Below, in pieces: positions 12,830 to 50,839 of a DNA stretch of 64,000 nucleotides. The stretch comes from a virus: IMG/VR virus record IMGVR_UViG_3300044697_000009, positions 21,262 to 85,261 of that record; one strand, 5' to 3'. The notes beneath the pieces were generated by a model. That model was given only the letters and a program-made list of their open reading frames with translations. It did no database searches and was not told the DNA's origin. The position numbers were made by a program, and so were the translations under genes. The stretch's first letter is position 1, and the number at the start of each line of letters is the position of its first letter.

Positions 12830-14071
12830 TTAGGTATTTACGATGTTGTTGACCAATACGTTTCTACCTGGGGCCATGCAAAATATCGCCTGATCCGAGT
12901 AGAGACGGAGTTCATAGGCTGCAGAGTTTTCCAAATCGCGGAAAAACTCTTCACCTTGACCAGGTCGTTTAAACGTCATATCAGTTGAACCAACTCGGAA
13001 CCATTCTTCCATAGCAAGGATATAAGCATAACCTTGTTTAACGTAGATAGAAGGCTCGATTTCGATCTCACCGTTTTGTGAGAAGAAACGGAGAGCTTTC
13101 CCACCGTTTTGGAGTTGAACAGAAGAATACGATTCGTCGTATCTGCGGAGAGCAGCTTGGTCAGACAGAACGTTTGACCAGGTACGAGGATTCAAGAGAG
13201 CCAAGACGTTACCATCGAGACCTTTTTCAACTGCACGAGCAGTCGCATAGTTCAAGATGTTAAACGAAAGAGCGGAACTTGAAGCGGAATACGTATTACC
13301 TTTCCAGAGGTTAAACTGAGCCGCGTTGATATTAAACAACGTAGTTTGATTCGTAAGAATCATATGGATACCAGGAAATTCGTTACCATAAGCGCCAGCG
13401 TGCCAGATAACGTCGTTAGTCTGAACGCCAGTAGCGTTAGTTGACAATGTAACGGTTTGAGCCGTCATATCAACAGCGGAAACTGAGAAGTTCCCACGAG
13501 ATGTCGAACCGTTGCTGGAACGAATCTCAATCGGCATACCTTCAGCACCAGCCCAGATACCAGGAGCCCATTCAGACGTAGTGATTGTAAGAACAGCGCC
13601 AGACGTACTAGCGATGGTCGCGTAACCAACTTGTCCATAGAGCATCTCGATTTCGAGCTTTTTAGCCATAGAACGGAGCATGTTGGCAACGAGGAATTTC
13701 GTCGCATCCATGAACGCTTTTTGACCACCAAGGGCTGCACGAGAAGCAGCGGCATAACCGAGCAGTGAACGAAGCACTACAGGATTACCACGGACTTGAG
13801 CATCCTTGATTTGACCAGCGATAGGAGCATTCAAATTGAAAGCATCTTCATCACTAGCAGCAAAGGTGATACCATGTTCCAGACCCAAGATAACAGGTTG
13901 ATGGTAAAGGTTACCAGGCTGTTTATCTTTAGACAGGAACTTGATTTTATTCATGAGCTTAACTCCATCAGGAATCAGCTCGCCAAGTTTATCAGCGTAG
14001 GTTTCTTTGAAGAAACCGTTAAGGGTACCAACCGAGTTATTCGGGGTACCAAATGTATTTGCACTCGCCAT
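12830..14071 (-). CDS. Major capsid protein (HK97 fold)
   Basis: 413 aa, downstream of the scaffold, AAGGAG SD, strongly biased codons and a terminator after it. The N-terminal LNGFFKETY pattern is seen in P22-like capsids. Confidence 0.85.
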   Translation of the reverse strand: MASANTFGTPNNSVGTLNGFFKETYADKLGELIPDGVKLMNKIKFLSKDKQPGNLYHQPVILGLEHGITFAASDEDAFNLNAPIAGQIKDAQVRGNPVVLRSLLGYAAASRAALGGQKAFMDATKFLVANMLRSMAKKLEIEMLYGQVGYATIASTSGAVLTITTSEWAPGIWAGAEGMPIEIRSSNGSTSRGNFSVSAVDMTAQTVTLSTNATGVQTNDVIWHAGAYGNEFPGIHMILTNQTTLFNINAAQFNLWKGNTYSASSSALSFNILNYATARAVEKGLDGNVLALLNPRTWSNVLSDQAALRRYDESYSSVQLQNGGKALRFFSQNGEIEIEPSIYVKQGYAYILAMEEWFRVGSTDMTFKRPGQGEEFFRDLENSAAYELRLYSDQAIFCMAPGRNVLVNNIVNT

Positions 14072-33821: not shown

Positions 33822-33850
33822 TTGACAGTGATCACGAAATAATGTAGAAT
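33822..33850 (+). promoter_or_regulatory. Sigma70-type promoter for the tRNA/AAA operon
   Basis: TTGACA-17-TAGAAT. Confidence 0.7.
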
Positions 33851-33884
33851 AAATATTATAGAGTATTTTGTATTAGACGATACA

Positions 33885-33957
33885 AGTCCCGTAGCTCAAT
33901 GGTTAGAGCAGGCTCTTTATAAGGGTCAGGTTGCTGGTTCGAGTCCAGCCGGGACTA
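33885..33957 (+). tRNA. tRNA-Ile (anticodon UAU), CCA not encoded
   Basis: Acceptor AGTCCCG/CGGGACT, D arm GCTC-AATGGTTA-GAGC, anticodon arm GGCTC-TTTATAA-GGGTC, T arm GCTGG-TTCGAGT-CCAGC. Confidence 0.9.
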
Positions 33958-33976
33958 TTAAACGAAAGGGTATGAT

Positions 33977-34981
33977 ATGAAACCAAGTGATTTAAGACAA
34001 TTGATCGAAACACGTTTTAAAGCAGGTATTCGTAGACCATTGCACGTCGAATCAAGTCCTGGATTAGGCAAGACTCAAATCCCTGCGCAGATCGCTAAAG
34101 ACTTAGGTATTGGATTTATTGCAATTCATGCTCCGTTACTTCAGCCTGAGGACTACGGGTTTCCTGTCATTAACCAAACGCGTGACGACGTTGATTTCGT
34201 TGTTAGTCGCACGAAATTCCCTATTGAGTCGTCCAAATGCCCTGAGACTGGTATTCTTTTAATTGACGAATTGTCGCAGGCAGATAATTCTGCTCAAAAA
34301 ATCTTAGCGAATCTTATTCAAGAACGTGAAATCCACGGTCAACATTTAAAACCCGGGTGGATGATCATTACTACGGGTAATAGAACAACTGACAGAGCAG
34401 GTGCGAACCGTTTACTTTCACATCTAAAGAACCGTTTAACGACAATTGAACTTGAACCGTCACTTGATGACTGGACTAACTGGGCATTATCAAACGACGT
34501 CAAGACTGAAGTCATCTCATTTATTAGGTTTCGCCCTGGATTATTGTCAAGTTTTGACCCACAACAAGACGTAAACCCGACACCTAGGTCATGGACTGAA
34601 GGTGTATCTGCCGCATTCGGTATTGTCAACCCTGCTCAGGAATTCCAAGTCTTCAAAGGAGACGTAGGCGAAGGTCCTGCTGCTGAATTCTGCGCATTTC
34701 TTAAGATCTACCGTAACCTTCCAAATCCTGATCTCATCGTAATGAATCCAAAGACTGCCGAAGTCCCTAAAGACCCAGCAACGATGTATGCATTGACAGG
34801 TGCATTGAGTACAAGAGCGACGACTGAAAACTTCGTTCGTATTCTTGAGTACATGAAACGTTTGACACCTGAATTCACTGTATTGTTTGTACGTGATGCA
34901 TTGCATAAAACTCCAGGAATTGCAAATACAAAAGAATTCATTACGTGGGCAGCAGGCGACGGCGCTAAACTCTTAAGCTAA
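33977..34981 (+). CDS. AAA+ ATPase (MoxR/AAA_5-like)
   Basis: SSPGLGKT, LLIDE, TGNR, LKNR and PTPRSW motifs. Confidence 0.9.
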   Translation: MKPSDLRQLIETRFKAGIRRPLHVESSPGLGKTQIPAQIAKDLGIGFIAIHAPLLQPEDYGFPVINQTRDDVDFVVSRTKFPIESSKCPETGILLIDELSQADNSAQKILANLIQEREIHGQHLKPGWMIITTGNRTTDRAGANRLLSHLKNRLTTIELEPSLDDWTNWALSNDVKTEVISFIRFRPGLLSSFDPQQDVNPTPRSWTEGVSAAFGIVNPAQEFQVFKGDVGEGPAAEFCAFLKIYRNLPNPDLIVMNPKTAEVPKDPATMYALTGALSTRATTENFVRILEYMKRLTPEFTVLFVRDALHKTPGIANTKEFITWAAGDGAKLLS

Positions 34982-35083
34982 GGTACTGTATGGAATATTT
35001 AAGCTTGATTAATACTTATTTCGAGTTTATAATAGTTGTAGTCGTAGTCATCGTATTATGTTTTATTGATTAACGAGGTATAT

Positions 35084-35917
35084 ATGCTTAATGAAAAAGC
35101 TGTATTAGTGAATCTTAAGATCTCCCAGTGGACTGGTCGGAAGTTTGATAAACGTGCAACGTCAACGGTCGTAACGACGCATAACACTGACGTACAGGCA
35201 GGTAACTATTCAAAGAAACTCTTACCCGGAGCAAAAGAACTTGACGCAATACAGAATACGTCAGCTAACATACGTAGCTTTTTTTATCAACAAACGTTGC
35301 CTTGGTGTAACGAAGGCTCTAGAATCCTTGCTAGTTCAAATTACCTAGGTTTCACTAACGCGATTCGTACCCATAAATCAGAATTCGAAACCGCTGTCAA
35401 GGAGTTTATTAAAAAATACCCAGAACTTAAGGACATGGCCAAGACTAAACTCGGTGATTTGTTCAACGACTACGAATACCCAGACGTTGCGACACTTCAA
35501 AACTCGTTTGGTTGCGAAGTTTCCTACATGCCGGTGCCTACAGTTGGTGACTTCCGCGTTGAGTTAACGCCTGAAGAAAAACAGAACTTCGAAAAACAAA
35601 TTAAACTTGCTGAGACTCAGGCATTAAACGACGTATGGCAACGTTTAAACTCGGTCGTATCAAAAGCAGTTGATAAACTAAAGTCTCCTGATGCCGTGTT
35701 TCGTGATTCACTAATTGAGAATATTCAAGATTTATGTAACCTTTTGCCAAGACTTAATGTCACTGAAAACGAAAACGTTGAGAAAATGCGGCAAGACGTA
35801 CAAAAAATTGTTGACAGCATTAGCGCTGAAGATTGTAGAAAAATCCCCGAAGTCCGTTCACATGCCGCCGAACGCCTTGATGAAGCAATGAAACGTATGT
35901 CTGGGTTTATTTCATGA
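35084..35917 (+). CDS. DUF3150-like helical protein of the AAA+/vWA module
   Basis: LVNLKISQWTGRKFD, TLPW and FNDYEYP; lies between the AAA+ and vWA genes. Confidence 0.6.
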   Translation: MLNEKAVLVNLKISQWTGRKFDKRATSTVVTTHNTDVQAGNYSKKLLPGAKELDAIQNTSANIRSFFYQQTLPWCNEGSRILASSNYLGFTNAIRTHKSEFETAVKEFIKKYPELKDMAKTKLGDLFNDYEYPDVATLQNSFGCEVSYMPVPTVGDFRVELTPEEKQNFEKQIKLAETQALNDVWQRLNSVVSKAVDKLKSPDAVFRDSLIENIQDLCNLLPRLNVTENENVEKMRQDVQKIVDSISAEDCRKIPEVRSHAAERLDEAMKRMSGFIS

Positions 35918-36117
35918 AACCTTTGACTGAACTCGAATACAAACTTTTAACGCCGGGCATGAAAGTTAAGTGTATTGATCATACACTTACAACGAGTCTT
36001 GAAAAATATAAAATCTATAAAGTAAAAACTATATGTTTTAATTGTATTGTTGTTGAAGAAACTCCGCATTTTTTACCGTTTGCTTATTCTAGATTTACGT
36101 TAGATTTAGGGGAATAA
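35914..36117 (+). CDS. Family A small SH3-like paralog (A1)
   Basis: MKPLTELEYKLLTPGMKVKC...RFTLDLGE. Confidence 0.7.
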   Translation: MKPLTELEYKLLTPGMKVKCIDHTLTTSLEKYKIYKVKTICFNCIVVEETPHFLPFAYSRFTLDLGE

Positions 36118-36119
36118 CT

Positions 36120-37238
36120 ATGAACGAAAAGATTTCAAAAGCAAAAGCATTGCTGGTACTTGATCAACCGTTTTTCGCAAGTCTCCTTTTGACGATGCCG
36201 ATTCATGAAGACAAAAAGATTACTACAATGGCAACAAACGGCGATTGGATCAAGTTTAACCCAGAATTCGTTGATAAATTATCGATTCAAGAACTTATCT
36301 TTGTCCTAGCGCATGAAACAATGCACTGCGTTTTCCAGCACATGCTTAGACGTGGGGATAAAAACCATAATAAATACAATATTGCGGGGGATTATGTCAT
36401 TAACGATCATTTGATTCGCGAACATGTAGGCGAAATGCCTCATGGCGGACTTCATAACCCCCAGTTAGTACAAGAAGGCAATGGGACGACTGAAGGCGTT
36501 TATGCCTTATTACCTAAGGAAGACGAACAAAAAACAGCGGGCAACATGGGTCAAGGTGGAAGCATGGATGAAGTCGAGTCCGATGACTTGACCCAGGCAG
36601 AAGCAAATCAAAAGTCTGAAGAAATGCGAGTCAAGGTTATTCAGGCAAAGAACGCGGCTAAGACGTGTGGCAAATTCTCAGCAGGCCTTGAGAGACTCGT
36701 TAATGATTTAACCCGCCCTAGAATTGACTGGAGAACAGTATTGAGACGATTCTTAAGCGATCGGGCAAAAGTTGATCTGAGTTATGCAAAACCTAAGCGG
36801 CGTTTCATGGCCGACGACGTAAACCTGCCAAGTCTGTTAGGTGAGCAGTTAGGTGAAATCGTCATTGCAGTTGATTGTTCAGGCAGTATTGATGACAAAC
36901 TTCTAAACGAGTTTGGTACTGAAATTTCAAGTATCAAAGAAGACACAAAACCAGTGAAAGTCCACGTAATTTATTTTGATTCTGAAGTCCTAAGGCATGA
37001 TGAATTCTCAAGAGACGACGACCTTCGCATCAACGCATGCGGTGGCGGTGGGACGGCATTCTCACCCGTGTTTAGATATATCCAAAACAAAAACATTAGC
37101 CCTGTGGCATGTGTATTTTTGACTGATCTTCAGTGCAATGACTTCGGTCAAACACCGAGTTACAATGTAATGTGGGCATCGACTGACAATGGCAATGCGC
37201 CGTTTGGTGAAATCTTATTATTGAAAGATGCCGCATGA
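36120..37238 (+). CDS. DUF2201-type metallopeptidase + vWA-like domain protein
   Basis: TMATNG, HETMH (HExxH), MIDAS-like DCSGS, GGGGTAF, FLTD. Confidence 0.85.
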   Translation: MNEKISKAKALLVLDQPFFASLLLTMPIHEDKKITTMATNGDWIKFNPEFVDKLSIQELIFVLAHETMHCVFQHMLRRGDKNHNKYNIAGDYVINDHLIREHVGEMPHGGLHNPQLVQEGNGTTEGVYALLPKEDEQKTAGNMGQGGSMDEVESDDLTQAEANQKSEEMRVKVIQAKNAAKTCGKFSAGLERLVNDLTRPRIDWRTVLRRFLSDRAKVDLSYAKPKRRFMADDVNLPSLLGEQLGEIVIAVDCSGSIDDKLLNEFGTEISSIKEDTKPVKVHVIYFDSEVLRHDEFSRDDDLRINACGGGGTAFSPVFRYIQNKNISPVACVFLTDLQCNDFGQTPSYNVMWASTDNGNAPFGEILLLKDAA

Positions 37239-37444
37239 AACCGTTAGATGAAATCTCTTTGAAGTTTTTAAAGCCCGGCACGAAACTTAAATGTATTAAT
37301 GCCATATATGAATTGAGAAATGGAGAAATATACGAATTTATGGAAATTTATTCCATTAACAATGGAAATATAACAATTAATTTAAAAAATGTTAAACATA
37401 CTTATTTCATTAACCGTTTTACACTAGACTTGGGATGTGAATGA
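37235..37444 (+). CDS. Family A small SH3-like paralog (A2)
   Basis: MKPLDEISLKFLKPGTKLKC...RFTLDLGCE. Confidence 0.7.
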   Translation: MKPLDEISLKFLKPGTKLKCINAIYELRNGEIYEFMEIYSINNGNITINLKNVKHTYFINRFTLDLGCE

Positions 37445-38088
37445 AAGCATTTAATAACAATACTTACATAAAACAAGAGATCGTGGGAAATCTAGTAAAA
37501 TCAAGATTCACATCTCAAAACATTACACTACAAACGGATTCATTACCGAAGTGGTTAGTCTTTTATTTAAATTGCCAACCTGATAAAAATAGAATTCTTG
37601 AAGTCATCAACGCTATAGAGCCGGGAATGGACTTAGATAATATAAAGCAGTTATTCATGATTCATGTCCTTGAATTCTCACTACTTCAGTTCGATCATTC
37701 AAAAAATCTGAAAGTTAAAAAAGCGATTATACAAGTAATAAATCTTTATAAACAAAACAATACTGACAAAAAAAAATGGAATGCCGCTCAATCCGCCGCT
37801 TATGCCGCCTCTAATGCTACTTATGCCGCTAATGCCATTAATGCCGCTTATGCCGCTAATGCCGCCTATGCCGCCTCTAATGCTACTTATGCCGCTAATG
37901 CCGCCGCCTATGCCGCCTCTAATGCTACTTATGCCGCTAATGCCGCTAATGCCGCCGCCTATGCCGCCGCCTATGCCGCCGCTAATGCTACTTATGCCGC
38001 TTGTGCCGCCGCTTATGCCGCCGCTCAAAACAGGTTATTAGACTACTTAATTAAATTAATACAAGACTTAAAGGTAAATGCTGCATGA
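37441..38088 (+). CDS. Ala-rich repeat protein
   Basis: AAYAA/ANAA repeats near the C-terminus. Confidence 0.7.
   Translation: MKAFNNNTYIKQEIVGNLVKSRFTSQNITLQTDSLPKWLVFYLNCQPDKNRILEVINAIEPGMDLDNIKQLFMIHVLEFSLLQFDHSKNLKVKKAIIQVINLYKQNNTDKKKWNAAQSAAYAASNATYAANAINAAYAANAAYAASNATYAANAAAYAASNATYAANAANAAAYAAAYAAANATYAACAAAYAAAQNRLLDYLIKLIQDLKVNAA
37781..38026 (+). repeat. Coding minisatellite of (T/A)ATGCCGC(C/T) units
   Basis: Several near-identical TATGCCGCCTCTAATGCTACTTATGCCGCTAATGCC blocks. Confidence 0.85.
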
Positions 38089-38309
38089 CTCCTATAACTA
38101 AAGACATGCTCATATATTTACAACGTGGGACGAAGGTAAAAAGCCTTGAAAATAGAGGCCACAGGGAAATTGGATTAGTAAAAGATAAGATTTATACGAT
38201 TAATAGAATTTATCCTACAGAAAGTTTAGATGGATATCTTTCATTACAAGAAGTTCCTAGTCCTATTTATTTATCAACTAGATTTACATTGGACTTAGAG
38301 GAAAAATGA
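38085..38309 (+). CDS. Family A small SH3-like paralog (A3)
   Basis: LIYLQRGTKVKS...RFTLDLEEK. Confidence 0.7.
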   Translation: MTPITKDMLIYLQRGTKVKSLENRGHREIGLVKDKIYTINRIYPTESLDGYLSLQEVPSPIYLSTRFTLDLEEK

Positions 38310-38488
38310 AACTATTATTAATCCTAGTATTGACTTTTCTTATAAGTTGTGCTCAGCCCGTTGAATTTTCAACTATTACCCAACCTGTGATTCAATATTG
38401 TACCAAACAATGCCAAAACTACGGCAGAACGTTGGACTTCATAGTAATTTATCCAAATGATCAGGGCGATATGTGTCAATGTAATTAA
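38306..38488 (+). CDS. Small Cys-rich lipoprotein
   Basis: Signal peptide with a LISC lipobox. Confidence 0.55.
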   Translation: MKLLLILVLTFLISCAQPVEFSTITQPVIQYCTKQCQNYGRTLDFIVIYPNDQGDMCQCN

Positions 38489-38616
38489 TCTAAATATTTT
38501 CTTTGACTTTCTAAAACTAATTCGATACAACGTGTTCAGTGTCTGTCAGGTAGCTGATAGCTATTAAAGCTATTAGTGGGGGTGGGGTTGTTCCGTGACC
38601 CCCGACTAAGGAAAAT

Positions 38617-38898
38617 ATGAAGATCACAAACACGATGCTAAAAGAATACCTAGACCTTAAGCAAGAACAAAAACGTATTGAAGCCCGACTACTTGAAATC
38701 AAATCAGAAATCATTGAACAAGGTGGCTGTCAGACTCAAGATTACGTTGCAGGTATAAGAGTCCAGCCTCGTCGAGTCCTGGCTAGTATTGAGACGTTTG
38801 AAGACTTATTAGGCGAATTCTACATGACTAGAAATAATCTAGTGAATACAATACAGGTCACCTACGTTGACGTAGTTAAACGCCCAAACCGGCCATAA
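38617..38898 (+). CDS. Hypothetical coiled-coil protein
   Basis: AAGGA SD, 93 aa. Confidence 0.6.
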   Translation: MKITNTMLKEYLDLKQEQKRIEARLLEIKSEIIEQGGCQTQDYVAGIRVQPRRVLASIETFEDLLGEFYMTRNNLVNTIQVTYVDVVKRPNRP

Positions 38899-39202
38899 CT
38901 TTAACACTTTCATAGTACTTTAAAGCAATATAACCCTATAGTATGAGAGTTGCATACTTAGTTTTGTATGCCTGCTGTAGTCGTTAAACAATTCTCAGTC
39001 TATCTCTACGATAAATTCTCAATCATTCTTCGTGTCGGTGACCAATTAATAGTTGATACTTCTGAAGGCATTGCATGGCGCCCCGGCTATGAACAATATA
39101 CTTTTGACATTTCGACTGAAGAATACAGACTAATAGATAACTGACAATCGCCGCACATTGACAATTTTTGTCAAGTCCTAAGGCTTATATTCAATTCCTA
39201 GA

Positions 39203-39219
39203 CTGGCATGTATCCTGCA
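39203..39219 (+). promoter_or_regulatory. Sigma54-type promoter
   Basis: CTGGCATGTATCCTGCA with correct GG/GC spacing, 46 nt upstream of ORF 39266. Confidence 0.55.
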
Positions 39220-39265
39220 CATAATATAAAATTATTATTAACTTCCATATAAAGGAGAAAAATTT

Positions 39266-39739
39266 ATGGAAACTGTTCTTAATACAAATGAAATTAAAGA
39301 AATTGCAAATTCATCTAACACAGCTAAAGCGATTTTTAATGAACTCGGCAGACGTGTCAGGTCCCGGTCGAGACTTGATCTTCGAAAACTGAAATACGAA
39401 ATTTTGTCAAGTGGAAATCAAGTAGTTGACGAAGAATATGTCGAAACGTTTAAAAAACTTCAGGCCTCGGGAGCTGGTAAACTCGTTAGCGGAAGACTTG
39501 GAAATCCAACTAGATTTATTTGGAATTATAAATTGAAAGATGTTACAAATTCCGCATTTGAACCTGAAACTAAAGTTAATGAGCCTGGTATTAAACCGGT
39601 GAGACGTAAATCCAAGACTCGATCTAAGCACAAAGACTTGTCATTGGCGCCCATTACAATAACGTTTCAACTTCCAAATGATATCAGAAGCGAAGATTTG
39701 AGTGCATTAATGAGTCTAGTAAAGGAATTATCGAAATGA
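39266..39739 (+). CDS. Putative winged-helix-like DNA-binding protein
   Basis: FKKLQASGAGKLVSGRLGNPTRFIW; AAGGAG SD. The fold is an inference. Confidence 0.55.
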   Translation: METVLNTNEIKEIANSSNTAKAIFNELGRRVRSRSRLDLRKLKYEILSSGNQVVDEEYVETFKKLQASGAGKLVSGRLGNPTRFIWNYKLKDVTNSAFEPETKVNEPGIKPVRRKSKTRSKHKDLSLAPITITFQLPNDIRSEDLSALMSLVKELSK

Positions 39740-40062
39740 AAGTATTAGTGATTGAAAGTGACTACGACCTGGCTGAGAGTTTAAAACTAGCTATCAATAA
39801 CCTTGGTGCAGAAGTTGATATAGCATTTGATATAAAAACGGCAGCTAAGCTTTTGAATTACCATTATGATTTAATACTAGCTGACCATATGCTATTAAAA
39901 GTATCAGGGAATTTTGATATCTTATCTAAAGTCAAGTCTAATTCGGTCGTAGTCCTTTCTTCACTAACACCTAACGAAACAAAGGAATTGAAGTACAACC
40001 ATATACAAAAACCATTCGGATTAAAAGAAATAGAAGATTATATAAACCCTAAACACCCGTAG
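39736..40062 (+). CDS. Single-domain response regulator (REC)
   Basis: KVLVIESD, DLILAD (phosphoacceptor), VVLSS, KPF. Confidence 0.8.
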   Translation: MKVLVIESDYDLAESLKLAINNLGAEVDIAFDIKTAAKLLNYHYDLILADHMLLKVSGNFDILSKVKSNSVVVLSSLTPNETKELKYNHIQKPFGLKEIEDYINPKHP

Positions 40063-40268
40063 AAGTTTTATACACTTGGATTCTATAATAATTTCCTTAT
40101 GTTATAGTGTCTGAGTCTAATACTATCTAAGACTTATACATGGCAGAGTTTTAATTCTCTAATGATTTCAATCCCCTAACATTGGCACGAACTGTGAAAT
40201 ACCAATTACCAGACAGCACGAGTAACGAGACGATAAGATCTACTCGGAAGCAAGTCGAAGTAAGGTGG

Positions 40269-40296
40269 TTGACTTCAAGTATTGAGATGACATAAT
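40269..40296 (+). promoter_or_regulatory. Sigma70-type promoter for the candidate ncRNA
   Basis: TTGACT-16-CATAAT with TG extension. Confidence 0.5.
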
Positions 40297-40309
40297 GTAG
40301 GTAAATTAG

Positions 40310-40650
40310 TGGACGGTCTTTAGACTTATGGAACTAGTTCGAAACATTAGTAGTCGGTATCAAGTAAACCTTGCAAGCTTAACAAGTACTATGAGAAAAA
40401 GTCGTTGCTTTTTCCATGGGATACGGATGGCGGGTTACCATCACGGGACGAATCTCCCGGCGGACAGCGGACCTTACTTACCTCGGGGCTTTAATGCCTA
40501 AAACACAGGGGTTATACGGAATCACGAAACACGCGGTTTCCCAAGAGAAGTACGGCAACGATGCTTTAACCGTGGAAATAAGGATTCTTTCGAATAAAAG
40601 TCGAAACGGCGGGATAGCATGGCCTAGGCCTAAACTTTCCTAGCTGTCTA
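40310..40650 (+). ncRNA. Candidate ~340-nt structured ncRNA
   Basis: GC-richer segment with paired ends (TGGACGGT/GCTGTCTA), multiple nested hairpins and a GCAA tetraloop. Confidence 0.5.
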
Positions 40651-40668
40651 ACGATGAGGTCGTTACTG

Positions 40669-40866
40669 ATGAGACTATCTAAAACTGTAATTATTAAAAT
40701 GACTAGAAAAGATGCCGAAGAATTAGGTCTTCTGATTTGTAAATGTGGGCATCCTAGAAACAATCATTTTGATTTTGATGAAAAACCTTGCGCACATTGT
40801 CCATGTAAATATTTTCACGAAATTTCTCGACGTGGTATTATAATTAAATCAAGGAGTAAAAAATGA
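40669..40866 (+). CDS. Small Zn-binding protein
   Basis: CKCGH-x4-H...CAHCPC; GAGGT SD. Confidence 0.6.
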   Translation: MRLSKTVIIKMTRKDAEELGLLICKCGHPRNNHFDFDEKPCAHCPCKYFHEISRRGIIIKSRSKK

Positions 40867-40973
40867 TAATTAGTACATCCAATTGCATGGTTTCTTTATT
40901 TAATCTTTTTTGGATTTAAAGTAGGAAGAAAATGTAAAATGAGATACTTTGAATATCAAGTTAGGAATCGAAA

Positions 40974-41303
40974 ATGAAGTTTTACTTAACAATATTCGCA
41001 TTGATTTTATTAGGCTGTAGTCCTGGAGACTACGCTACGTTACAAGGCCCACCAGGGCCGCAAGGTCCTATTGGAAATCCTGGTAGTAGTGTTACAATGG
41101 TACAGTTTTGTTCGAATTATTCAACTACATACCCGTCAACATTTCCTGAATACGGATTCTGTGTATCAAATAATCTTTATGCAACGTATTGGAATGGGAC
41201 AGATGCTTGGACTGCGGAAATCGTACCTGGGTATTATGATTCAACATCAACGTCTGCTCCTTGTAGTTTTACTGTTTTACCTAACTGTGTGGTGGAAAAT
41301 TGA
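40974..41303 (+). CDS. Lipoprotein with a short collagen-like segment
   Basis: LLGC lipobox, GPPGPQGPIGNPG. Confidence 0.7.
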   Translation: MKFYLTIFALILLGCSPGDYATLQGPPGPQGPIGNPGSSVTMVQFCSNYSTTYPSTFPEYGFCVSNNLYATYWNGTDAWTAEIVPGYYDSTSTSAPCSFTVLPNCVVEN

Positions 41304-41521
41304 ATCGCAAATACAAACGTCTTAATAAATTTATGTTGAAATTCTTACAACCCGGAGTTAAAGTAAAATACGTAGGAAATCTTCGAGAAAATCATCATTA
41401 TAAATTAAAACGTTATAAAGTCTATGAATTCATTAATTATTTTGGTTACAATCATGTGATTATTCATGCTGAGAATCGTAATATCAACGTTCCATGCCAT
41501 GCATTTACATTGGATATCTAA
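41300..41521 (+). CDS. Family A paralog (A4)
   Basis: LKFLQPGVKVK...AFTLDI. Confidence 0.7.
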   Translation: MNRKYKRLNKFMLKFLQPGVKVKYVGNLRENHHYKLKRYKVYEFINYFGYNHVIIHAENRNINVPCHAFTLDI

Positions 41522-41733
41522 TGAAGACATTTCCTAAACATTTAAAAAAACTTCTAGTACCTGGAGTTAAACTAAAGTGTGTAGATGATTCTTCAAATAC
41601 GCGTAAAGATAAAATAAAAATGAATGAGATTTACACATTTGACGGCTGGCATGAAGTATGGGACAATGAAATTTATATAAAAGAAAACAATCAGTCTTGG
41701 TTTATAGATCGGTTTACATTGGATTTAGAATGA
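41521..41733 (+). CDS. Family A paralog (A5)
   Basis: LKKLLVPGVKLKC...RFTLDLE. Confidence 0.7.
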   Translation: MKTFPKHLKKLLVPGVKLKCVDDSSNTRKDKIKMNEIYTFDGWHEVWDNEIYIKENNQSWFIDRFTLDLE

Positions 41734-42044
41734 CCCTCACTGCTGAAGCATTAAAATTTTTGCCAGATGGCACAAGACTTAGAAGCCTAGTGAATGATGT
41801 TGGTCTTGAATTTAATAAAATCTATACTTTAGATATATTTCCTAAGACTTATTCCACACTTAATGGAATGTTAAAAGAATTATACGCAGATAAATTAATT
41901 GAATTAATTCCTGATGGCGTAGGTTTATTATCTAAAATCAAGTTTAATCGCACTGAATTTAAAACACAAGTATTATCACTCAAAGAATTTCCATATAAAG
42001 AATTCCCTATTAGTTATTTTTCTCTAGACTTGGAGTCATTATGA
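41730..42044 (+). CDS. Family A paralog (A6) carrying an inserted capsid N-arm copy
   Basis: LKFLPDGTRL...TLNGMLKELYADKLIELIPDGVGLLSKIKF...YFSLDLE. Confidence 0.75.
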   Translation: MTLTAEALKFLPDGTRLRSLVNDVGLEFNKIYTLDIFPKTYSTLNGMLKELYADKLIELIPDGVGLLSKIKFNRTEFKTQVLSLKEFPYKEFPISYFSLDLESL

Positions 42045-42216
42045 AAATGAAAATCGTTGAATCCTTGAAACCAATCTGTGTAATCTGTGGCGAAAAAAAC
42101 CTAGAGTTGTATTACAATGACACAGAAGTCCGGTGTTTAAAATGTATTCCAACAGGGCATAATGTCGAAACTAGAAATGAAACGTTTGAAGTCAAGAAAC
42201 CTGAGGCGTTACACTA

Positions 42217-42498
42217 ATGTGGAAAGTTGGCGATAAAATCAAATGTATTTTATATGATGGCGATTCTATCCAACCTTGGATAACTATAGGAAAGACCTAT
42301 GAAATACTCGAAGTCATAAAAAATTATCATTACGATAATGAACATAAAGATAAATATAATCAACAATATAGAATAATGAATGACCAAGGTGGAAGTTGGT
42401 GGATACAACCGCATTGTTTTAAACTAGTATTTAAAACTACGGGCCCAGAGAAATCTGAAGTCGAAATCCTGGATAGAATACAAGAGAATTTTAAATGA
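42217..42498 (+). CDS. Family B paralog (B1)
   Basis: MWKVGDKIKC...SEVEILDRIQENFK. Confidence 0.7.
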   Translation: MWKVGDKIKCILYDGDSIQPWITIGKTYEILEVIKNYHYDNEHKDKYNQQYRIMNDQGGSWWIQPHCFKLVFKTTGPEKSEVEILDRIQENFK

Positions 42499-42713
42499 AA
42501 CCATTAGATGAAACTACAGTAAAATTCCTAACGCCCGGAGTGAAATTAAAATGTATCGTTAAGGGGGAAAAATATTCTCTACAAACAAATAAAACATACA
42601 CATTTAACAACATATCTGGAATAATTAACGATATAACAGTAATTTGTGTTATGGAAGGAAATAAAAAATTAGGCCCATATTTTGCTTATAGATTTACATT
42701 GGATTTAGAATGA
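42495..42713 (+). CDS. Family A paralog (A7)
   Basis: MKPLDETTVKFLTPGVKLKC...RFTLDLE. Confidence 0.7.
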   Translation: MKPLDETTVKFLTPGVKLKCIVKGEKYSLQTNKTYTFNNISGIINDITVICVMEGNKKLGPYFAYRFTLDLE

Positions 42714-42913
42714 CTGATATTGAATACAAACTTTTAACTCCAGGTATGAAAATAAAACGTATTAAGATTTCAACGGCGGTTTATAATATAAAAATAGGGA
42801 GTATATCCACAGTTGAGAAAACATTTGAACTTATTGATAGAAAATTTATTCAAGTTAAAGAATGCGATCAGTTTTGGTATTTTCATGAAGATTTTACATT
42901 GGAGATTGATTAA
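42710..42913 (+). CDS. Family A paralog (A8)
   Basis: EYKLLTPGMKIK...DFTLEID. Confidence 0.7.
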   Translation: MTDIEYKLLTPGMKIKRIKISTAVYNIKIGSISTVEKTFELIDRKFIQVKECDQFWYFHEDFTLEID

Positions 42914-43079
42914 TGTACCACATCTATGACAATGGTAAACGAATCACAATCACGCCCGTGTCATATAATTTCGTCTTGACAAATCTATTCCCAACTGCCA
43001 AAATAGACACTATGACGCTATCAAGTCTAAAACCAGGGGAAGAATACAATTATCATCAATATAAATTCGTGAGACAAGT

Positions 43080-43364
43080 ATGAAAATTAAAGCAAAGCTC
43101 ATGGACCAAAGTATTATTCTAGAAAACAATGGATTTGAATGGATAGTAACAGAAAGTAATGTACTTGACACACCTAAAAACACTACGTTTAAAACGTTAG
43201 TTGAGTTTCAATTCCATCACCCTTGGTATTCATTAGAAGAAATCGGAATAGAAGAATATTACGTAGGATGTATTCATGACTTAAAAATACGAGAAATCTT
43301 TATAACTCGTGAAGAATATTGTACTAAATGTAATTATACAAGAACTTTAAAACCTGGAGAATGA
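43080..43364 (+). CDS. Hypothetical protein with a C-terminal Cys/His cluster
   Basis: CIH...CTKC. Confidence 0.55.
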   Translation: MKIKAKLMDQSIILENNGFEWIVTESNVLDTPKNTTFKTLVEFQFHHPWYSLEEIGIEEYYVGCIHDLKIREIFITREEYCTKCNYTRTLKPGE

Positions 43365-43365
43365 A

Positions 43366-44754: not shown

Positions 44755-44763
44755 GGATAAGAT

Positions 44764-45051
44764 ATGATTTTTGATGCAACTAAACCCGAACCTGATTCTA
44801 AACCAAAAGTCGTTGAACTAGCCGAAAATGCTGGTATTAAAGACGATATGTTAGAAACTGTTCATGAATTAATGAAAATGTATAGCGGGAAGACTCCAAA
44901 GGATTTCTCTGTAGAAGAATTCTATTACATGTTTGAAGCAGGAATGCATAAAGCTGGAGTTAAGAACAACTTTAGACTCAAGTCTTTAATGAAACTATGC
45001 CATGCATATCTATATGGATATTCACTTGGCCGAGTAATTACAAAGGATTAA
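44764..45051 (+). CDS. Hypothetical protein
   Basis: AAGGA SD, 95 aa. Confidence 0.6.
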   Translation: MIFDATKPEPDSKPKVVELAENAGIKDDMLETVHELMKMYSGKTPKDFSVEEFYYMFEAGMHKAGVKNNFRLKSLMKLCHAYLYGYSLGRVITKD

Positions 45052-45053
45052 AT

Positions 45054-46442: not shown

Positions 46443-46642
46443 TTTACGAAGTCTTAGGATATAATACGAATCATTTAGAAAAATCACCATGCTGTATCAT
46501 TAAGTCTGAAAGTTTTGAATTATGCGATCATATTTTCCAGACATTAGGTGTGTTTTTCGCAGTGAATCGTTATAATAGTTTTAAACTTGTCCTAAAATGT
46601 GTTGACAATGGACAAATAATTAAAAATGGAGAGAAAAAATGA
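46439..46642 (+). CDS. Hypothetical protein
   Basis: ATGA-coupled ORF. Confidence 0.5.
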   Translation: MIYEVLGYNTNHLEKSPCCIIKSESFELCDHIFQTLGVFFAVNRYNSFKLVLKCVDNGQIIKNGEKK

Positions 46643-47499
46643 CTAAACGTAAACCCAAAGTCATTGATTCGATTCAAAACGAACTCAAGATGTTATTTAC
46701 AGAAGATATTCCTGATATTGCATTAAAAGAACCAGTCAAAGGTAGTGAATTTATCCGTAAAGGTTTTGTTGAATGTATCGATAACAAAGGCATTGAACAT
46801 TTATTAAATAAACACAAAATCTATGTCCTTAATGAAATCCATGTTTCTCAGACTAAACTTGAAGTATGTTGCGAAGACGGCAAGATGCATTTCTTAGATA
46901 CTAAGTTCTTCAAAGGTATTGATTATGGTCCTTTCATTGAAGGTGATTCTGTGTCATGTGCGGGATTCGCGGATTCTGAACAACTAGAAGGTAAAATTAT
47001 TAATCCAGCTGAACTAATCCATCTTAATGGAATCGTCAAATCCGGTGATGAAACTCATGCCGTTGTATCATGGAGTAGTTATGTATTTAAAATTCCTAAT
47101 CAACAACTTCGTTTAAGACAAAGATATCCCAAACTTCCTGATAATCCGTTTAAAGAAAACGATGTAGTCCGATGTATAATTGGATACAAATCTGAAATCT
47201 TTCCTAATTGGAAATACACAGTAGTCGCTAAAGATAGAGAACGTGTATTAATAAAAGAACGATCTGATAGATGGTATCCTCATACACATTTTATTTTAGA
47301 TAATAAATCCAAGACAAAACAAATTCGTCAAAATCGTGACTTAAAACAAAGTATTCGGGAGTATTTAAATCTTCATAGTAATGAAATCGTATCTCCCCAC
47401 GATCTTATTGAATATCTTAAGACTTTGAAACATGACGTTGATGTCAATGTAGTTATTAATGAAATTCGCGATTTTGCGAGAACTAGCTTTCACTGGTGA
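46639..47499 (+). CDS. Protein with tandem SH3-like segments related to families A/B
   Basis: FIRKGFVECID...KIY, PFIEGDSVSC, PFKENDVVRCI...KY...HFILD. Confidence 0.6.
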   Translation: MTKRKPKVIDSIQNELKMLFTEDIPDIALKEPVKGSEFIRKGFVECIDNKGIEHLLNKHKIYVLNEIHVSQTKLEVCCEDGKMHFLDTKFFKGIDYGPFIEGDSVSCAGFADSEQLEGKIINPAELIHLNGIVKSGDETHAVVSWSSYVFKIPNQQLRLRQRYPKLPDNPFKENDVVRCIIGYKSEIFPNWKYTVVAKDRERVLIKERSDRWYPHTHFILDNKSKTKQIRQNRDLKQSIREYLNLHSNEIVSPHDLIEYLKTLKHDVDVNVVINEIRDFARTSFHW

Positions 47500-47925: not shown

Positions 47926-47927
47926 GT

Positions 47928-49265: not shown

Positions 49266-49505
49266 ATGTTTAAAGCTGGCGATAAAGTTATGGTAATAAT
49301 CCCCATAGGTCATTTACAACAGAATGATATTAGAACTCTTAGAATCCATCACTATACAAAAAAACTTTATATACCTCACAATGAAGGTACTAAAGAAGGA
49401 TGGTGGGTTGAAGGAAATGAAAAATGTTTAAAATTACTACAAAAGCCCGCACCTAAAACAGAAATAGAAGCTTTAGATCGTTTTCAACAGAATTTTAAAT
49501 ACTAA
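49266..49505 (+). CDS. Family B paralog (B2)
   Basis: MFKAGDKV...TEIEALDRFQQNFKY. Confidence 0.7.
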   Translation: MFKAGDKVMVIIPIGHLQQNDIRTLRIHHYTKKLYIPHNEGTKEGWWVEGNEKCLKLLQKPAPKTEIEALDRFQQNFKY

Positions 49506-49514
49506 GGAGATTAT

Positions 49515-50600
49515 ATGTGTAAAATTTGTATCATCCCTGGAATTACCGACAAGACTACAGAACTCGTTTGGAAATTCATTACAAAAATGTCAAAAGAAAT
49601 GTCTGGATATTCTGAAACCGATGGATTTGGATATGCAGCTTTTGACGGCCAAGGTAATTTGTTTGGTGAACGTTGGCTTAATCCTAAAGAAGCATTCTCA
49701 AACCGTGATGAAAAAAATATCCTCGTACAAGAATTGATTCATAAATACAAAGGATTCTTGAGAGGAAAGCTTCCTATCTACAATAAATTCGGCGAAGGTA
49801 ATATGAATAGTCTTAGGACTGCTATACTTCACGCAAGGAATGCAACAACCGAGAAAGGACTCATCAATGTCCATCCTTTTGTTCATGGAGACTCGGCATT
49901 GATCCATAACGGAATAATCGCAAATCATGAACAACTTCACAAAAAATACTCTACATGTGATAGTGAAGTCATATTGACTGAATACAATAAATTTAACGTA
50001 ACTAACAATATTAAGAACATCAATAACGTTGCATCAAAACTTGATGGATATTATGCATGTAGTGTATTATCTAAAACTGATGACAATAAGTACATAGTCG
50101 ATGTATTTAAAGAAGATTCGGCAAGACTTAAAGGTTATTTCATCAAGGAATTTAATACTGTTGTATTCGCTACTCCCGGTGCAAATGATACCTACGGTCC
50201 GATTCAATCCGTATGTCGAGACTTAAACCTAACTATTGTGGACGAATTTGATCTTGAAGACTCAAGTCTCCTTCGAATGGATGCAATGACCGGCGAAGTC
50301 TTAGATATGTGCAAGTTCAATTCTAAATTCAAGAAAGGTAAACGAGAAGTCACTGTTATTGATAAATGGACTCAAGAATTCGGTAACCATAACCGTGGCG
50401 GCGGCAGTCAACGAAGTTTCTCTGAAAAACAAAAAGATGAAGAACTTGAACGTCAGTTACTTGAGAATCTTTCATTTATGAACTACGAAGACGATACAAA
50501 AGAATTCACGGTATTGAATCAAGAAACGAAGTTCAATGAAGCCGGAGACTGGGAACAATCTGAGAATGGTGTCTGGAGAAAGAAAACGGCGGCACAATGA
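49515..50600 (+). CDS. Class II (Ntn) glutamine amidotransferase
   Basis: Cys2 (MCKI), DGFG, HARNAT, NVHPF, HNGII, DSE. Confidence 0.9.
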   Translation: MCKICIIPGITDKTTELVWKFITKMSKEMSGYSETDGFGYAAFDGQGNLFGERWLNPKEAFSNRDEKNILVQELIHKYKGFLRGKLPIYNKFGEGNMNSLRTAILHARNATTEKGLINVHPFVHGDSALIHNGIIANHEQLHKKYSTCDSEVILTEYNKFNVTNNIKNINNVASKLDGYYACSVLSKTDDNKYIVDVFKEDSARLKGYFIKEFNTVVFATPGANDTYGPIQSVCRDLNLTIVDEFDLEDSSLLRMDAMTGEVLDMCKFNSKFKKGKREVTVIDKWTQEFGNHNRGGGSQRSFSEKQKDEELERQLLENLSFMNYEDDTKEFTVLNQETKFNEAGDWEQSENGVWRKKTAAQ

Positions 50601-50839
50601 CTAGAAAGTTCAAACCTGGAGACAAAGTTCTAAGAACTATTGATTCTGGAGCCTATGGAATCACAGTCCCAGGGCAAATCTATACAGTGAAAAGAACGAA
50701 AGACAACGGACATATAGCATTAGTCGAATGCCCAGATGGATTTGGATATTCAATGAAATCGTTTACTTTAGTAAGTACTGCTCCATTAACGGAATTTGAA
50801 TGGTTAGATAGAGTACAGGAGAATTTTAAAGATGTATGA
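50597..50839 (+). CDS. Family B paralog (B3)
   Basis: KFKPGDKV...TEFEWLDRVQENFKDV. Confidence 0.7.
   Translation: MTRKFKPGDKVLRTIDSGAYGITVPGQIYTVKRTKDNGHIALVECPDGFGYSMKSFTLVSTAPLTEFEWLDRVQENFKDV

What the first reader, a model, noticed from the sequence alone, without database searches (positions are those of the whole stretch)
35914..42913. Family A: eight small paralogs with fixed ends (LKxLxPGxKxKC...RFTLDLE) and hypervariable cores
Seen: ORFs at 35914, 37235, 38085, 41300, 41521, 41730, 42495 and 42710 share an N-terminal (K/Y)xLxPG(M/V/T)KxK motif, usually a central K(I/V/T)Y, and a C-terminal (R)FTLD(L/I). The sequence between these is poorly conserved. They are mostly joined by ATGA/TAATG overlaps. 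Two are wedged within or directly after the AAA+/DUF3150-like/vWA-peptidase operon. Inference: an SH3/KOW-like barrel puts N- and C-termini together, so the constant ends could form one docking face and the variable loops a binding repertoire. This could be a diversified adaptor or anti-defence array, possibly feeding the AAA+/vWA machine. The capsid graft in A6 fits a loop-display scaffold.
Basis: partly seen in the sequence, partly recalled or inferred. Interest (0 to 1): 0.82.

Follow-up and report, generated by a model that had tools for sequence, protein, structure and literature searches.

The report
Eight small SH3-like phage paralogs
One peat-metagenome phage carries eight diverged copies of a tiny beta-barrel protein that its relatives lack; the copies look like small binding modules with variable loops, one of which displays a piece of the phage's own capsid protein, but what they bind is unknown.

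Summary
Eight + strand ORFs (62-104 aa) at the stated coordinates form a real protein family. Leave-one-out profiles find each member at E 5.7e-20 to 1.7e-5, and start and stop codons overlap as described. AlphaFold2 gives a confident SH3-like barrel (pLDDT 90.3). The family matches no Pfam or PHROG model and forms one clade, so it expanded within this lineage. It belongs to a wider, unnamed SH3-like superfamily (GDKVKCI...IYTV...RFxLV). Most of the "fixed end" residues are conserved across that whole superfamily, so they are largely fold signature. Only the N-terminal helix and the C-terminal TLDLE are specific to this family, and the tail codons also carry Shine-Dalgarno-like purines for the next gene. 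The variable parts are three loops, not the whole core. The proposed link to the AAA+/vWA module failed my co-occurrence tests: 0 of 24 loci fetched around DUF2201 homologues or a weak A7 match carry the domain, and of 6 related phages with DUF2201_N, two carry 1-2 superfamily copies. This phage has 12 superfamily matches; 50 other viral records have at most 3. The capsid graft in A6 is real (23 of 30 residues) and sits in a loop. Function is unknown. The scan noted this family before on the same genome only (e1-6112960).

The parts
35914..36117 (+). A1, 67 aa, between the middle gene and the DUF2201 gene
   Evidence: ORF; 81.6 bits; leave-one-out E 5.2e-17; ATGA overlap with the upstream stop
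37235..37444 (+). A2, 69 aa, overlaps the stop of the DUF2201 gene
   Evidence: 99.0 bits; E 1.1e-19
38085..38309 (+). A3, 74 aa
   Evidence: 97.2 bits; E 1.3e-11
41300..41521 (+). A4, 73 aa from TTG (TTGA overlap with the upstream stop); alternative ATG at 41333 gives 62 aa
   Evidence: 90.1 bits; P0006, 62 aa; E 3.2e-12
41521..41733 (+). A5, 70 aa
   Evidence: 102.4 bits; E 9e-16
41730..42044 (+). A6, 104 aa, barrel with an insert of about 40 residues
   Evidence: 67.3 bits; E 1.7e-5; AF2 model has barrel blocks at pLDDT 80-91 and residues 38-77 below 50
41856..41945 (+). Graft inside A6 (residues 43-72), a copy of the major head protein N-arm peptide
   Evidence: 23 of 30 residues identical without gaps, pairwise E 7e-13; 11 of the 23 use another codon and 60 of 90 nt are identical; dN 0.257 with dS saturated, and the next best 30-aa window in the genome matches 10 of 30
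13937..14026 (-). Source peptide, residues 16-45 of the major head protein (ORF 12830-14071)
   Evidence: phrog_14242 'major head protein' at E 4.5e-15; alignment
42495..42713 (+). A7, 72 aa, the modelled member
   Evidence: 101.9 bits; pLDDT 90.3; E 5.7e-20
42710..42913 (+). A8, 67 aa
   Evidence: 90.3 bits; E 8.6e-12
33977..37238 (+). Context only: AAA+ gene (33977-34981), weakly DUF3150-like middle gene (35066-35917), DUF2201_N + DUF2201 vWA-peptidase gene (36120-37238). Not shown to be functionally linked to the family.
   Evidence: Pfam (DUF3150 at 14.6 bits, below its cut-off); HExxH and the DxSGS/T/D MIDAS residues are invariant in 13 homologues
42217..42498 (+). Same superfamily but not family A: 93-aa 'family B' member lying inside the A4-A8 block
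   Evidence: profile built only from outside sequences, E 2.4e-6; falls outside the family A clade
46639..47499 (+). Same superfamily: 286-aa protein with two weaker copies of the domain
   Evidence: outside-only profile, E 4.1e-8, two stretches
49266..50839 (+). Same superfamily: family B members 49266-49505 and 50597-50839, flanking a class-II glutamine amidotransferase gene
   Evidence: (E 0.003 and 6.3e-9)

Best explanation
Family A is a set of eight real, translationally coupled genes in the early/accessory arm of a complete 85-kb podovirus-like phage from a peat metagenome. All eight descend from one ancestral gene that multiplied within this phage lineage. Each encodes a short N-terminal helix packed on a five-stranded SH3-like beta-barrel. 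Shown here: the fold, the common origin, and the fact that most 'fixed end' residues are the signature of a wider, uncharacterised SH3-like superfamily. Inferred: the family-specific C-terminal L-D-L-E/G codons are partly held in place because they carry the Shine-Dalgarno-like purines for the next, overlapping gene. Also inferred, as my commitment on mechanism: the proteins act as small stand-alone binding modules. The barrel is a constant scaffold, and three variable loops (about residues 22-28, 38-48 and 55-61) give each copy its own target, either host or phage proteins during takeover, counter-defence or assembly. A6 is the clearest case. It keeps the barrel and presents, in the beta2-beta3 hairpin, a 30-residue copy of the capsid protein's N-terminal arm that has been kept by purifying selection. 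It would therefore compete for whatever binds that arm. The neighbouring AAA+/vWA-peptidase module is a neighbour in a variable region, not a demonstrated partner.
For: Real genes and a real family. Synonymous codons vary in the motifs, and codon identity at amino-acid-identical cells is 111 of 230 at the N end against 101.5 expected, so conservation acts on the protein. Fold: A7 model pLDDT 90.3, pTM 0.78, helix 6-10 plus five strands. VIA-align against 48,161 chains puts PARC CPH first (Z 7.3, rmsd 2.2, 62 aligned), then SH3 and NusG KOW domains and YorP, with 174 chains at Z>=5. The BFVD top hit is an uncharacterised phage protein at TM 0.80. Superfamily: an exhaustive HMMER search of 1.84 billion representatives gave 32 hits at E<=1e-3, 8 of them the window's own and 24 outside. 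The outside hits include proteins with many tandem copies (P0009, 1890 aa) and a methyltransferase fusion. A profile built only from 30 outside domains finds 7 of 8 members at E 2.5e-16 to 3.9e-5, and the conserved columns coincide. One origin: family A is one clade (98/84, 100% of 200 bootstrap trees), sister to metagenomic P0016+P0027 and then P0015. Lineage-specific expansion: the A2 profile finds 1 marginal match (17.3 bits) in 20 related records. The superfamily profile A3 gives 12 matches in this genome, against 2, 1, 1 and seventeen zeros in relatives, and 0-3 in 30 other viral records that bear the GDKVKCI motif. Shine-Dalgarno use: 31 of 51 genes have an SD-like 4-mer at -16..-6, against 0.10 background. 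Every gene downstream of a member has GGAG, GAGG, GGGG, GGGA or GGAT inside the member's last codons. The C end shows excess codon identity, 86 of 150 against 60.0 expected. A6.
Against: No binding partner was found or tested successfully, so the binding-module mechanism rests on fold analogy and on A6 alone. I had no model coordinates, so I could not show that the variable loops cluster on one face or that the conserved polar residues (K17, K19, T36, K53, E54, R66, T68, D70) are buried or exposed. A conserved surface, and hence a common partner, remains possible. Net charge ranges from -1 to +10 and pI from 5.4 to 10.0, which neither supports nor excludes nucleic-acid binding for single members such as A4. 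Within this phage clade there is a weak positive trend between DUF2201_N and the superfamily (2 of 6 against 1 of 14). In G008 one superfamily ORF (59816-60070, - strand) abuts its AAA+ gene. Terminal branches are long while all sampled relatives lack the family, so import of an already expanded block cannot be excluded. No expression data exist for this phage.
Confidence: 0.55

Rival explanations
1. One reading: the family is an adaptor or substrate array for the AAA+/middle-gene/vWA-peptidase machine. The constant ends dock on the machine, for example the acidic L-D-L-E tail on the vWA MIDAS metal, and the variable loops bring in different clients.
For: A1 and A2 are translationally coupled to the module's genes. 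The vWA domain keeps the DxSGS, T and D MIDAS residues, and the peptidase keeps HExxH, in 13 of 13 homologues. [quoted passage not shown] In G008 a superfamily ORF abuts a distantly related AAA+ gene. The likeness of L-D-L to integrin-type L-D-V MIDAS ligands is my recollection, not a test.
Against: None of the 24 loci scanned (5325 ORFs; 23 loci around DUF2201 homologues of 39-61% identity plus L024) has any family-A or superfamily hit. In 17 of the 22 loci that hold both genes, the middle gene and the vWA gene lie about 8-35 nt apart. In the other 5 the gap holds unrelated small ORFs, so this junction is an insertion slot. Four of the 6 related phages with DUF2201_N have no superfamily ORF. 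Six of the eight members lie 0.85-5.5 kb away from the module.
Confidence: 0.12
2. The family belongs with the downstream peptide-ligase cluster (COOH-NH2 ligase, Amidoligase_2, GATase, RimK-like ATP-grasp). The barrels would be substrates, carriers or specificity adaptors, and their C-terminal acidic ends would be extended or ligated, as RimK does to ribosomal protein S6 or PafA does with Pup.
For: A4-A8 are co-oriented with, and lie 450 nt upstream of, the COOH-NH2_lig gene at 43366, with no + strand terminator in between. Superfamily members of 'family B' directly follow the Amidoligase_2, GATase and ATP-grasp genes. Five of the eight members end in Glu or Asp. The RimK and Pup analogies are recalled, not tested.
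Against: Relatives that carry the ligases (G005 with COOH-NH2_lig and Amidoligase_2; G012 with Amidoligase_2) have 0 superfamily matches. Three members end in K, I or L. The last residues also encode the next gene's ribosome-binding site, which explains part of their conservation. The published suggestion for the phiEco32 ligases is cell-wall modification (as quoted in PMC10580990, passage seen; the original paper, Iyer 2009, is not held).
Confidence: 0.12
3. They are small nucleic-acid-binding regulators of the KOW, Sso7d or Tudor kind that act on transcription or translation of host or phage genes.
For: NusG and Spt5 KOW domains, ribosomal L21e/L24-type proteins and helicase SH3 domains are among the structural neighbours. 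One outside relative is named NusG by its source. K17 and K19 are conserved, and A4 has net charge +10.
Against: Seven of the eight members have net charge -1 to +3. No member matches the Pfam KOW model at E<=1. The structural matches are generic (no Z>=8).
Confidence: 0.1
4. The constant ends are DNA-level features, either recombination boundaries that shuffle cassette cores or a targeted-hypermutation system, rather than protein features.
For: A 22-nt identity links the 3' ends of A5 and A7, and a 17-nt identity links the 5' parts of A1 and A8. The C end shows excess same-codon use, 86 against 60.0 expected.
Against: Synonymous sites differ freely in the motifs, and the N end shows no excess (111 against 101.5). 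No reverse transcriptase is present in the genome. The same residues are conserved in distant proteins with unrelated DNA. The two assemblies show no sequence variation across 33900-45000.
Confidence: 0.04

Closest known systems
SH3-like small beta-barrels (eukaryotic SH3, CPH domain of PARC/Cul7/HERC2, KOW of NusG/Spt5, B. subtilis prophage protein YorP)
   Same: A five-stranded barrel of about 60 residues, with a G-x-K-V-x-C-I first strand and an R-F-x-L last strand after a 3-10 turn. Best matches are Z 6.3-7.3, rmsd 2.0-2.7 over 52-62 residues.
   Different: No sequence-profile membership in any Pfam SH3, KOW or CPH family. There is an extra N-terminal helix. The proteins stand alone at 62-104 aa. 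Function does not transfer from the fold.
Unnamed superfamily 'F-K-x-G-D-K-V-K-C-I ... G-K-I-Y-x-V ... R-F-x-L-V' seen in metagenomic and viral proteins (hits P0009-P0032; some touch Pfam DUF6501, DUF7244 and SH3_15, or phrog_4927 and phrog_4317)
   Same: The conserved columns are the same, and recognition works both ways by profile. The closest outside members (P0015, P0016, P0027) also have the M-K-P-L-T helix and P-G-T-K-L.
   Different: Family A has P-G instead of G-D and T-L-D-L-E instead of E-L-V. It ends right after the last strand. It occurs as eight separate genes, whereas outside members are single, tandem-repeat or fused. DUF6501 and DUF7244 themselves find nothing in this genome.
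'Family B' of the same phage
   Same: Same superfamily barrel for 42217, 49266 and 50597, in the same accessory arm of the genome.
   Different: Family B has a C-terminal helix tag and sits behind ligase genes. It falls outside the family A clade. I did not test 51828 and 55436 beyond weak scores.
Engineered loop-display binders on small barrels (for example Sso7d-based affitins); a works-like comparison recalled from general knowledge
   Same: A constant small barrel with variable surface loops or strands. A6 shows that a foreign peptide is tolerated in a hairpin.
   Different: Family A is natural, and no target is known. This is an analogy only.
MoxR-vWA ternary systems (Kaur et al. 2020, PMC7159879)
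   Same: An AAA+ gene plus a vWA gene plus a third gene, with small neighbouring genes.
   Different: That paper does not mention DUF2201, DUF3150 or such barrels (0 occurrences; the 2 'SH3' occurrences concern peptidoglycan-binding domains). Co-occurrence with family A is not found.

Membership tests
SH3-like small beta-barrel fold | Five antiparallel strands forming a small barrel, with the last strand following a 3-10 turn | tested here: met
   A7 model: strands 17-20, 34-44, 47-54, 57-63 and 67-69, with a helical turn at 64-66, pLDDT 90.3. The top 50 VIA rows are nearly all SH3, KOW or CPH domains, Z up to 7.3.
SH3-like small beta-barrel fold | Ligand-binding face formed by the RT and n-Src loops | not testable with these tools
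   No model coordinates are returned. I can only say that the variable stretches 22-28 and 38-48 fall at the first two inter-strand loops.
KOW (Pfam PF00467) | Match to the KOW profile | tested here: not met
   No KOW hit for any of the 9 proteins at E<=1.
DUF6501 (PF20111) | Match to the family profile above its cut-off | tested here: not met
   0 matches in the whole genome at E<=1. Only distant outside relatives touch this profile.
DUF7244 (PF23896) | Match to the family profile above its cut-off | tested here: not met
   0 matches in the whole genome at E<=1.
Unnamed GDKVKCI...RFxLV superfamily | Reciprocal profile recognition and the same conserved columns | tested here: met
   The family profile finds 24 outside proteins at E<=1e-3. 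A profile built only from outside sequences finds 7 of 8 members at E<=3.9e-5, with A6 at 0.12 because of its insert. Column table.
Accessory component of the AAA+/DUF2201 (MoxR-vWA-like) module | Co-occurrence with the module in other genomes | tested here: not met
   0 of 24 loci scanned. Two of 6 related records with DUF2201_N have 1-2 superfamily ORFs, and none has a solid family-A member.
Accessory component of the AAA+/DUF2201 (MoxR-vWA-like) module | Physical interaction with a module protein | not tested
The one modelling job gave no verdict and is reported under Tried and rejected.
Diversity-generating retroelement target | Reverse transcriptase plus a template/variable repeat pair | tested here: not met
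   No RVT_1 match in the genome. The longest exact match between members is 22 nt.

The most novel reading that the evidence does not exclude
The phage keeps a natural library of mimic-displaying mini-binders. A single SH3-like scaffold has multiplied, and its hairpin loops now carry different baits or decoys. A6 is the visible example: it shows the capsid protein's N-terminal arm early in infection. This could titrate a host immune sensor that recognises that arm, or it could time or poison capsid assembly by occupying the arm's scaffold or capsomer site. If so, the other seven members would be decoys or inhibitors for other targets. The family would then be a counter-defence array built on loop display, a design so far known mainly from engineered binders.
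Probability: 0.15. Interest if true: 0.8.

Novelty: new variant of a known kind. Interest (0 to 1): 0.48.

Why it matters
Small unannotated phage genes hold many host-takeover and counter-defence functions. This family offers a compact, well-folding scaffold (pLDDT 90 from only eight sequences) that one phage has multiplied far beyond what 50 other viral records show, so selection for diversity is likely. One member carries a capsid peptide under purifying selection, which gives a concrete and testable handle on what such mini-proteins bind. The work also shows that the neighbouring AAA+/vWA-peptidase module should not be read as their partner on position alone. Finally, it defines a wider SH3-like domain family that curated libraries do not yet name.

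Tried and rejected
The phage reference collection gave no DNA match for 33900-43400 and no tblastn match for A7.

The word-indexed search of 5.8 billion proteins returned only the eight self proteins, so I used the exhaustive search instead.

In their place I used single proteins and one degenerate motif pattern. Searches gave nothing useful: one 22-residue match and none.

Their contigs are only 859-4028 bp long in any case.

Complex prediction with the DUF2201 protein, A1 and Mg returned 'no answer' (ipSAE 0.00 and 0.00; controls were not run). I count this as neither for nor against binding.

No RNA holder was listed among sequencing runs. The only holders are two DNA runs that may be the source of this sequence.

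Laying those two assemblies on 33900-45000 showed no differences, so there is no population signal on diversification.

PADLOC gave no hit for the members or for the AAA+ and vWA proteins.

The sigma-70 promoter scan was no better than shuffles, 58 against 52.1.

Rfam found only the tRNA.

Literature: searches for phiEco32 + amidoligase, DUF2201 + phage, vWA-MoxR + conflict systems, and SH3-like + bacteriophage + paralogous + small proteins + lineage-specific expansion returned no paper describing this family. Iyer et al. 2009 (PMC3268129) is not held; I know it only from the citing passage in PMC10580990. Supplementary files were not consulted.

I considered nucleic-acid binding, a DGR and recombination cassettes; these are set out under the rival explanations.

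I could not map conservation onto 3D coordinates because the models are not returned as files.

Full report
SETTING. The window is bases 21262-85261 of an 85,261-bp virus record with direct terminal repeats, rated 100% complete. The - strand arm carries the structural genes. These include a T4-type large terminase, a P22/SU10-like portal and an SU10-like adaptor, and a major head protein (12830-14071; phrog_14242, E 4.5e-15). The + strand arm from about 32.8 kb onward carries accessory and replication genes. It starts with a sigma-70-like site at 33822-33850 (11 of 12 matches) and a tRNA-Ile(TAT) at 33885-33957. No + strand terminator-like site lies between 31500 and 45500. Shine-Dalgarno-like 4-mers precede 31 of 51 genes, against a background of 0.10. 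Two DNA runs labelled peat metagenome hold the sequence.

THE OBSERVATION. All eight ORFs are present at the stated starts, on one strand, and are 62-104 aa long. A profile of the eight, run against all 1242 stop-to-stop ORFs of the genome, scores them at 67-102 bits and the next ORF at 12.9 bits. In leave-one-out runs the omitted member always ranks directly after the seven training members, at E 5.7e-20 to 1.7e-5. The best non-members reach E>=3.7e-4 and turn out to be distant relatives. Start and stop overlaps (ATGA, TAATG and, for A4, TTGA) chain the genes to their neighbours. The motif codons differ at synonymous sites. Same-codon use at amino-acid-identical cells is close to the codon-usage expectation at the N end (111 of 230 against 101.5). 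It is higher in the core (108 of 185 against 88.4) and at the C end (86 of 150 against 60.0). Conservation therefore acts mainly on the protein, with a modest extra DNA-level constraint at the 3' end.

WHAT THE PROTEINS ARE. No Pfam or PHROG family matches any member at a meaningful level. AlphaFold2 on the eight-row alignment gives a confident model of A7: pLDDT 90.3, pTM 0.78, and four of five models at 88.7 or better. The model has a short helix at 6-10, five strands, and a helical turn before the last strand. Foldseek against the PDB finds nothing at E<=1e-3; its top rows are L21e/L24-type ribosomal proteins, NdhS, PsaE, nitrile hydratase beta and KOW domains. The alignment against 48,161 representative chains puts the PARC CPH domain first (Z 7.3, rmsd 2.2, 62 residues). 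Many SH3 domains, NusG KOW, HERC2 and the prophage protein YorP follow. There are 174 chains at Z>=5 and none at Z>=8. BFVD lists uncharacterised small phage proteins, the best at TM 0.80, and the ESM Atlas lists unnamed viral clusters. The fold class, an SH3-like small barrel, is secure. No specific family or function follows from it.

A WIDER SUPERFAMILY. The word-indexed search of 5.8 billion proteins returned only the eight self proteins. The exhaustive HMMER search of 1.84 billion representatives returned 32 proteins at E<=1e-3, of which 24 are not from this phage. Those 24 share F-K-x-G-D-K-V-K-C-I, G-K-I-Y-x-V and R-F-x-L-V. They occur as single small proteins, as two or three copies, fused to a methyltransferase (P0011), or as long tandem arrays (P0009, 1890 aa; P0010, 737 aa). 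A profile built only from 30 such outside domains recovers 7 of the 8 members at E 2.5e-16 to 3.9e-5; A6 scores 0.12 because of its insert. It also picks up four further ORFs of this phage: 50564-50836, 46624-47496 (two stretches), 42205-42495 and 49266-49502. Column by column, the residues fixed in family A (L/F12, G15, K17, V/L18, K19, C20, I21, L29, I34, Y35, T36, F/V37, I50, L52, K53, E54, Y62, R66, F67, L69) are also the residues conserved in the outside domains. Only three things are specific to family A: the M-K-P-L-x-E helix, which P0015, P0016 and P0027 share; P14 in place of the G-D turn; and T68, D70, L71 and E72. DUF6501 and DUF7244, which touch some outside relatives, find nothing in this genome.

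THE 'FIXED ENDS, HYPERVARIABLE CORE' PICTURE. The ends are mostly fold signature. The interior is not uniformly variable, since it contains conserved strand positions. The variable parts are three inter-strand stretches, about 22-28, 38-48 and 55-61. The family-specific C-terminal L-D-L-E/G also encodes purine-rich, SD-like strings (GGGG, GGGA, GAGG, GGAG, GGAT) 7-14 nt before the start codon of each downstream gene. This phage does use SD sites. There is no reverse transcriptase in the genome, and the longest exact match between members is 22 nt, so a retroelement-type diversifier is excluded.

ORIGIN AND COPY NUMBER. In a maximum-likelihood tree of 44 domains, family A is one clade (98/84, and 100% of 200 bootstrap trees). 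It is sister to P0016+P0027 and then P0015, and is separate from family B and from the G008 ORFs. The inner pairs are A2-A4, A3-A6 and A1-A8, with long terminal branches. Only 70 columns were usable, so inner forks are rough.

The major head protein has 55 related viral loci at 53-79% identity. Among 20 of those records, 9 of them at least 90% complete, the family profile finds one marginal match (G008, 17.3 bits). A full local scan of four complete relatives confirms this. G003, G007 and G009 have none. G008 has three superfamily ORFs of the family-B style, one of which also gives a marginal hit (18.4 bits) to the family-A profile. With the superfamily profile A3, this genome has 12 matches, G008 has 2, G004 has 1, G014 has 1 (E 6.6e-4), and the other 17 have none. 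In 30 further viral records chosen because they contain the exact GDKVKCI motif, the same profile finds 0-3 copies, and 24 of the 30 have at least one. Twelve copies in 85 kb is therefore an outlier among the 51 viral records examined.

THE AAA+/vWA LINK. The neighbours are an AAA ATPase, a middle gene and a DUF2201_N + DUF2201 protein. The middle gene reaches DUF3150 only at 14.6 bits, below the cut-off. The DUF2201 protein has invariant HExxH and MIDAS-type residues.

Twenty-three viral loci carry homologues of the DUF2201 protein at 39-61% identity. In the 21 loci that hold all three genes, the order AAA, middle gene, vWA is conserved. None of the 5325 ORFs of the 24 loci scanned matches the family or the superfamily profile. 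In 17 of the 22 loci that hold both the middle and the vWA gene, the aligned parts of the two genes lie about 8-35 nt apart. In five loci (L004, L005, L007, L017, L019) a gap of 217-345 nt holds small ORFs unrelated to family A. The place where A1 sits is thus a recurrent insertion slot.

Among the 20 related phage records, six have DUF2201_N. Two of these (G004, G008) have superfamily ORFs, and four have none. One record without the module (G014) has a weak hit. In G008 one such ORF abuts its AAA+ gene, which is only 24% identical to the one here. This adjacency is the only point in favour of a link. Copy number does not follow the module.

THE LIGASE NEIGHBOURHOOD. Downstream lie a phiEco32-type COOH-NH2 ligase (43366), an Amidoligase_2 (47928), a class-II amidotransferase (49515) and a RimK-like ATP-grasp (51072). 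A superfamily ORF follows each of the last three; for 51828 the profile support is only weak. This makes a ligase connection worth stating as a rival. However, G005 and G012, which carry such ligases, have no superfamily match.

THE GRAFT IN A6. Residues 43-72 of A6 align without gaps to residues 16-45 of the major head protein. Twenty-three of 30 residues are identical (pairwise E 7e-13). Eleven of the 23 identical residues use different codons, and 60 of 90 nt are identical. dN is 0.257 with synonymous sites saturated, and the next best 30-residue window anywhere in the six frames of the genome matches 10 of 30. The same peptide is 67-73% identical to the head proteins of four relatives. In the A6 model the barrel blocks have pLDDT 80-91, and residues 38-77, the insert in the beta2-beta3 hairpin, are below 50. 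A3, the sister of A6, has no insert. The graft is therefore an old, derived insertion that selection has kept as a peptide.

READING. Shown here: real genes, an SH3-like fold, membership of a wider unnamed superfamily, one origin, an expansion specific to this lineage, a capsid-peptide insert in a loop, and no general tie to the AAA+/vWA module. Inferred: dual coding of the C-terminal tail, and the role as stand-alone binding modules whose loops set specificity. What any member binds is unknown.

I put the ligase-linked reading at 0.12, the nucleic-acid reading at 0.10 and DNA-level cassette shuffling at 0.04. The family is a new sequence family of a known fold and a known evolutionary pattern, paralog expansion in a phage accessory region. 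The most unusual element is the capsid-arm display in A6.

Noticed in passing
L046-L078; G007:C1:60180-62542: In 22 of 55 related loci the major head protein match starts only at residue 58-109 (two of these lie at locus edges). In G007 the N-terminal piece is a separate ORF (62351-62542, - strand) about 1.1 kb upstream of the body (60180-61205). The capsid gene seems to be interrupted in many relatives, by an intron, a homing-endonuclease insertion or similar.
   Followed up: partly
window 35917-36120, and L004, L005, L007, L017, L019: The junction between the middle gene and the DUF2201 gene is a recurrent slot for unrelated small ORFs. Five of the 22 loci that hold both genes have 217-345 nt there, with at least two different small proteins.
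   Followed up: yes
window 37441-38088: This 215-aa ORF between A2 and A3 has a long Ala/Tyr/Asn-rich repeat of the (N-A-T-Y-A-A-N-A) type and a weak phrog_18326 match. Both public assemblies break inside the repeat, at 37830-37917.
   Followed up: no
window 43366-52358: A phiEco32-type peptide-ligase cluster (COOH-NH2_lig, Amidoligase_2, GATase, RimK-like ATP-grasp), in which each of the last three enzyme genes is followed by an SH3-like 'family B' ORF carrying a shared C-terminal helix tag.
   Followed up: partly
G008:C1:57312-60070 (- strand): In the closest complete relative, a family-B-style SH3-like ORF (59816-60070) overlaps the start of a distantly related AAA+ gene (58755-59834). A DUF2201-type gene follows (57312-58535) with no middle gene between them.
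   Followed up: partly
window 40062-40974: About 900 nt with only short, overlapping ORFs of 57-75 aa and no Rfam match.
   Followed up: no
window 40974-41303 and 38306-38488: Two small predicted lipoprotein-like ORFs with signal-peptide and Cys motifs. The first has a short collagen-like G-x-y run. Each lies next to a family A member.
   Followed up: no
window 33822-33957: A near-consensus sigma-70-like site (TTGACA, 17 nt, TAGAAT) lies directly upstream of a tRNA-Ile(TAT) and the AAA+ operon.
   Followed up: no
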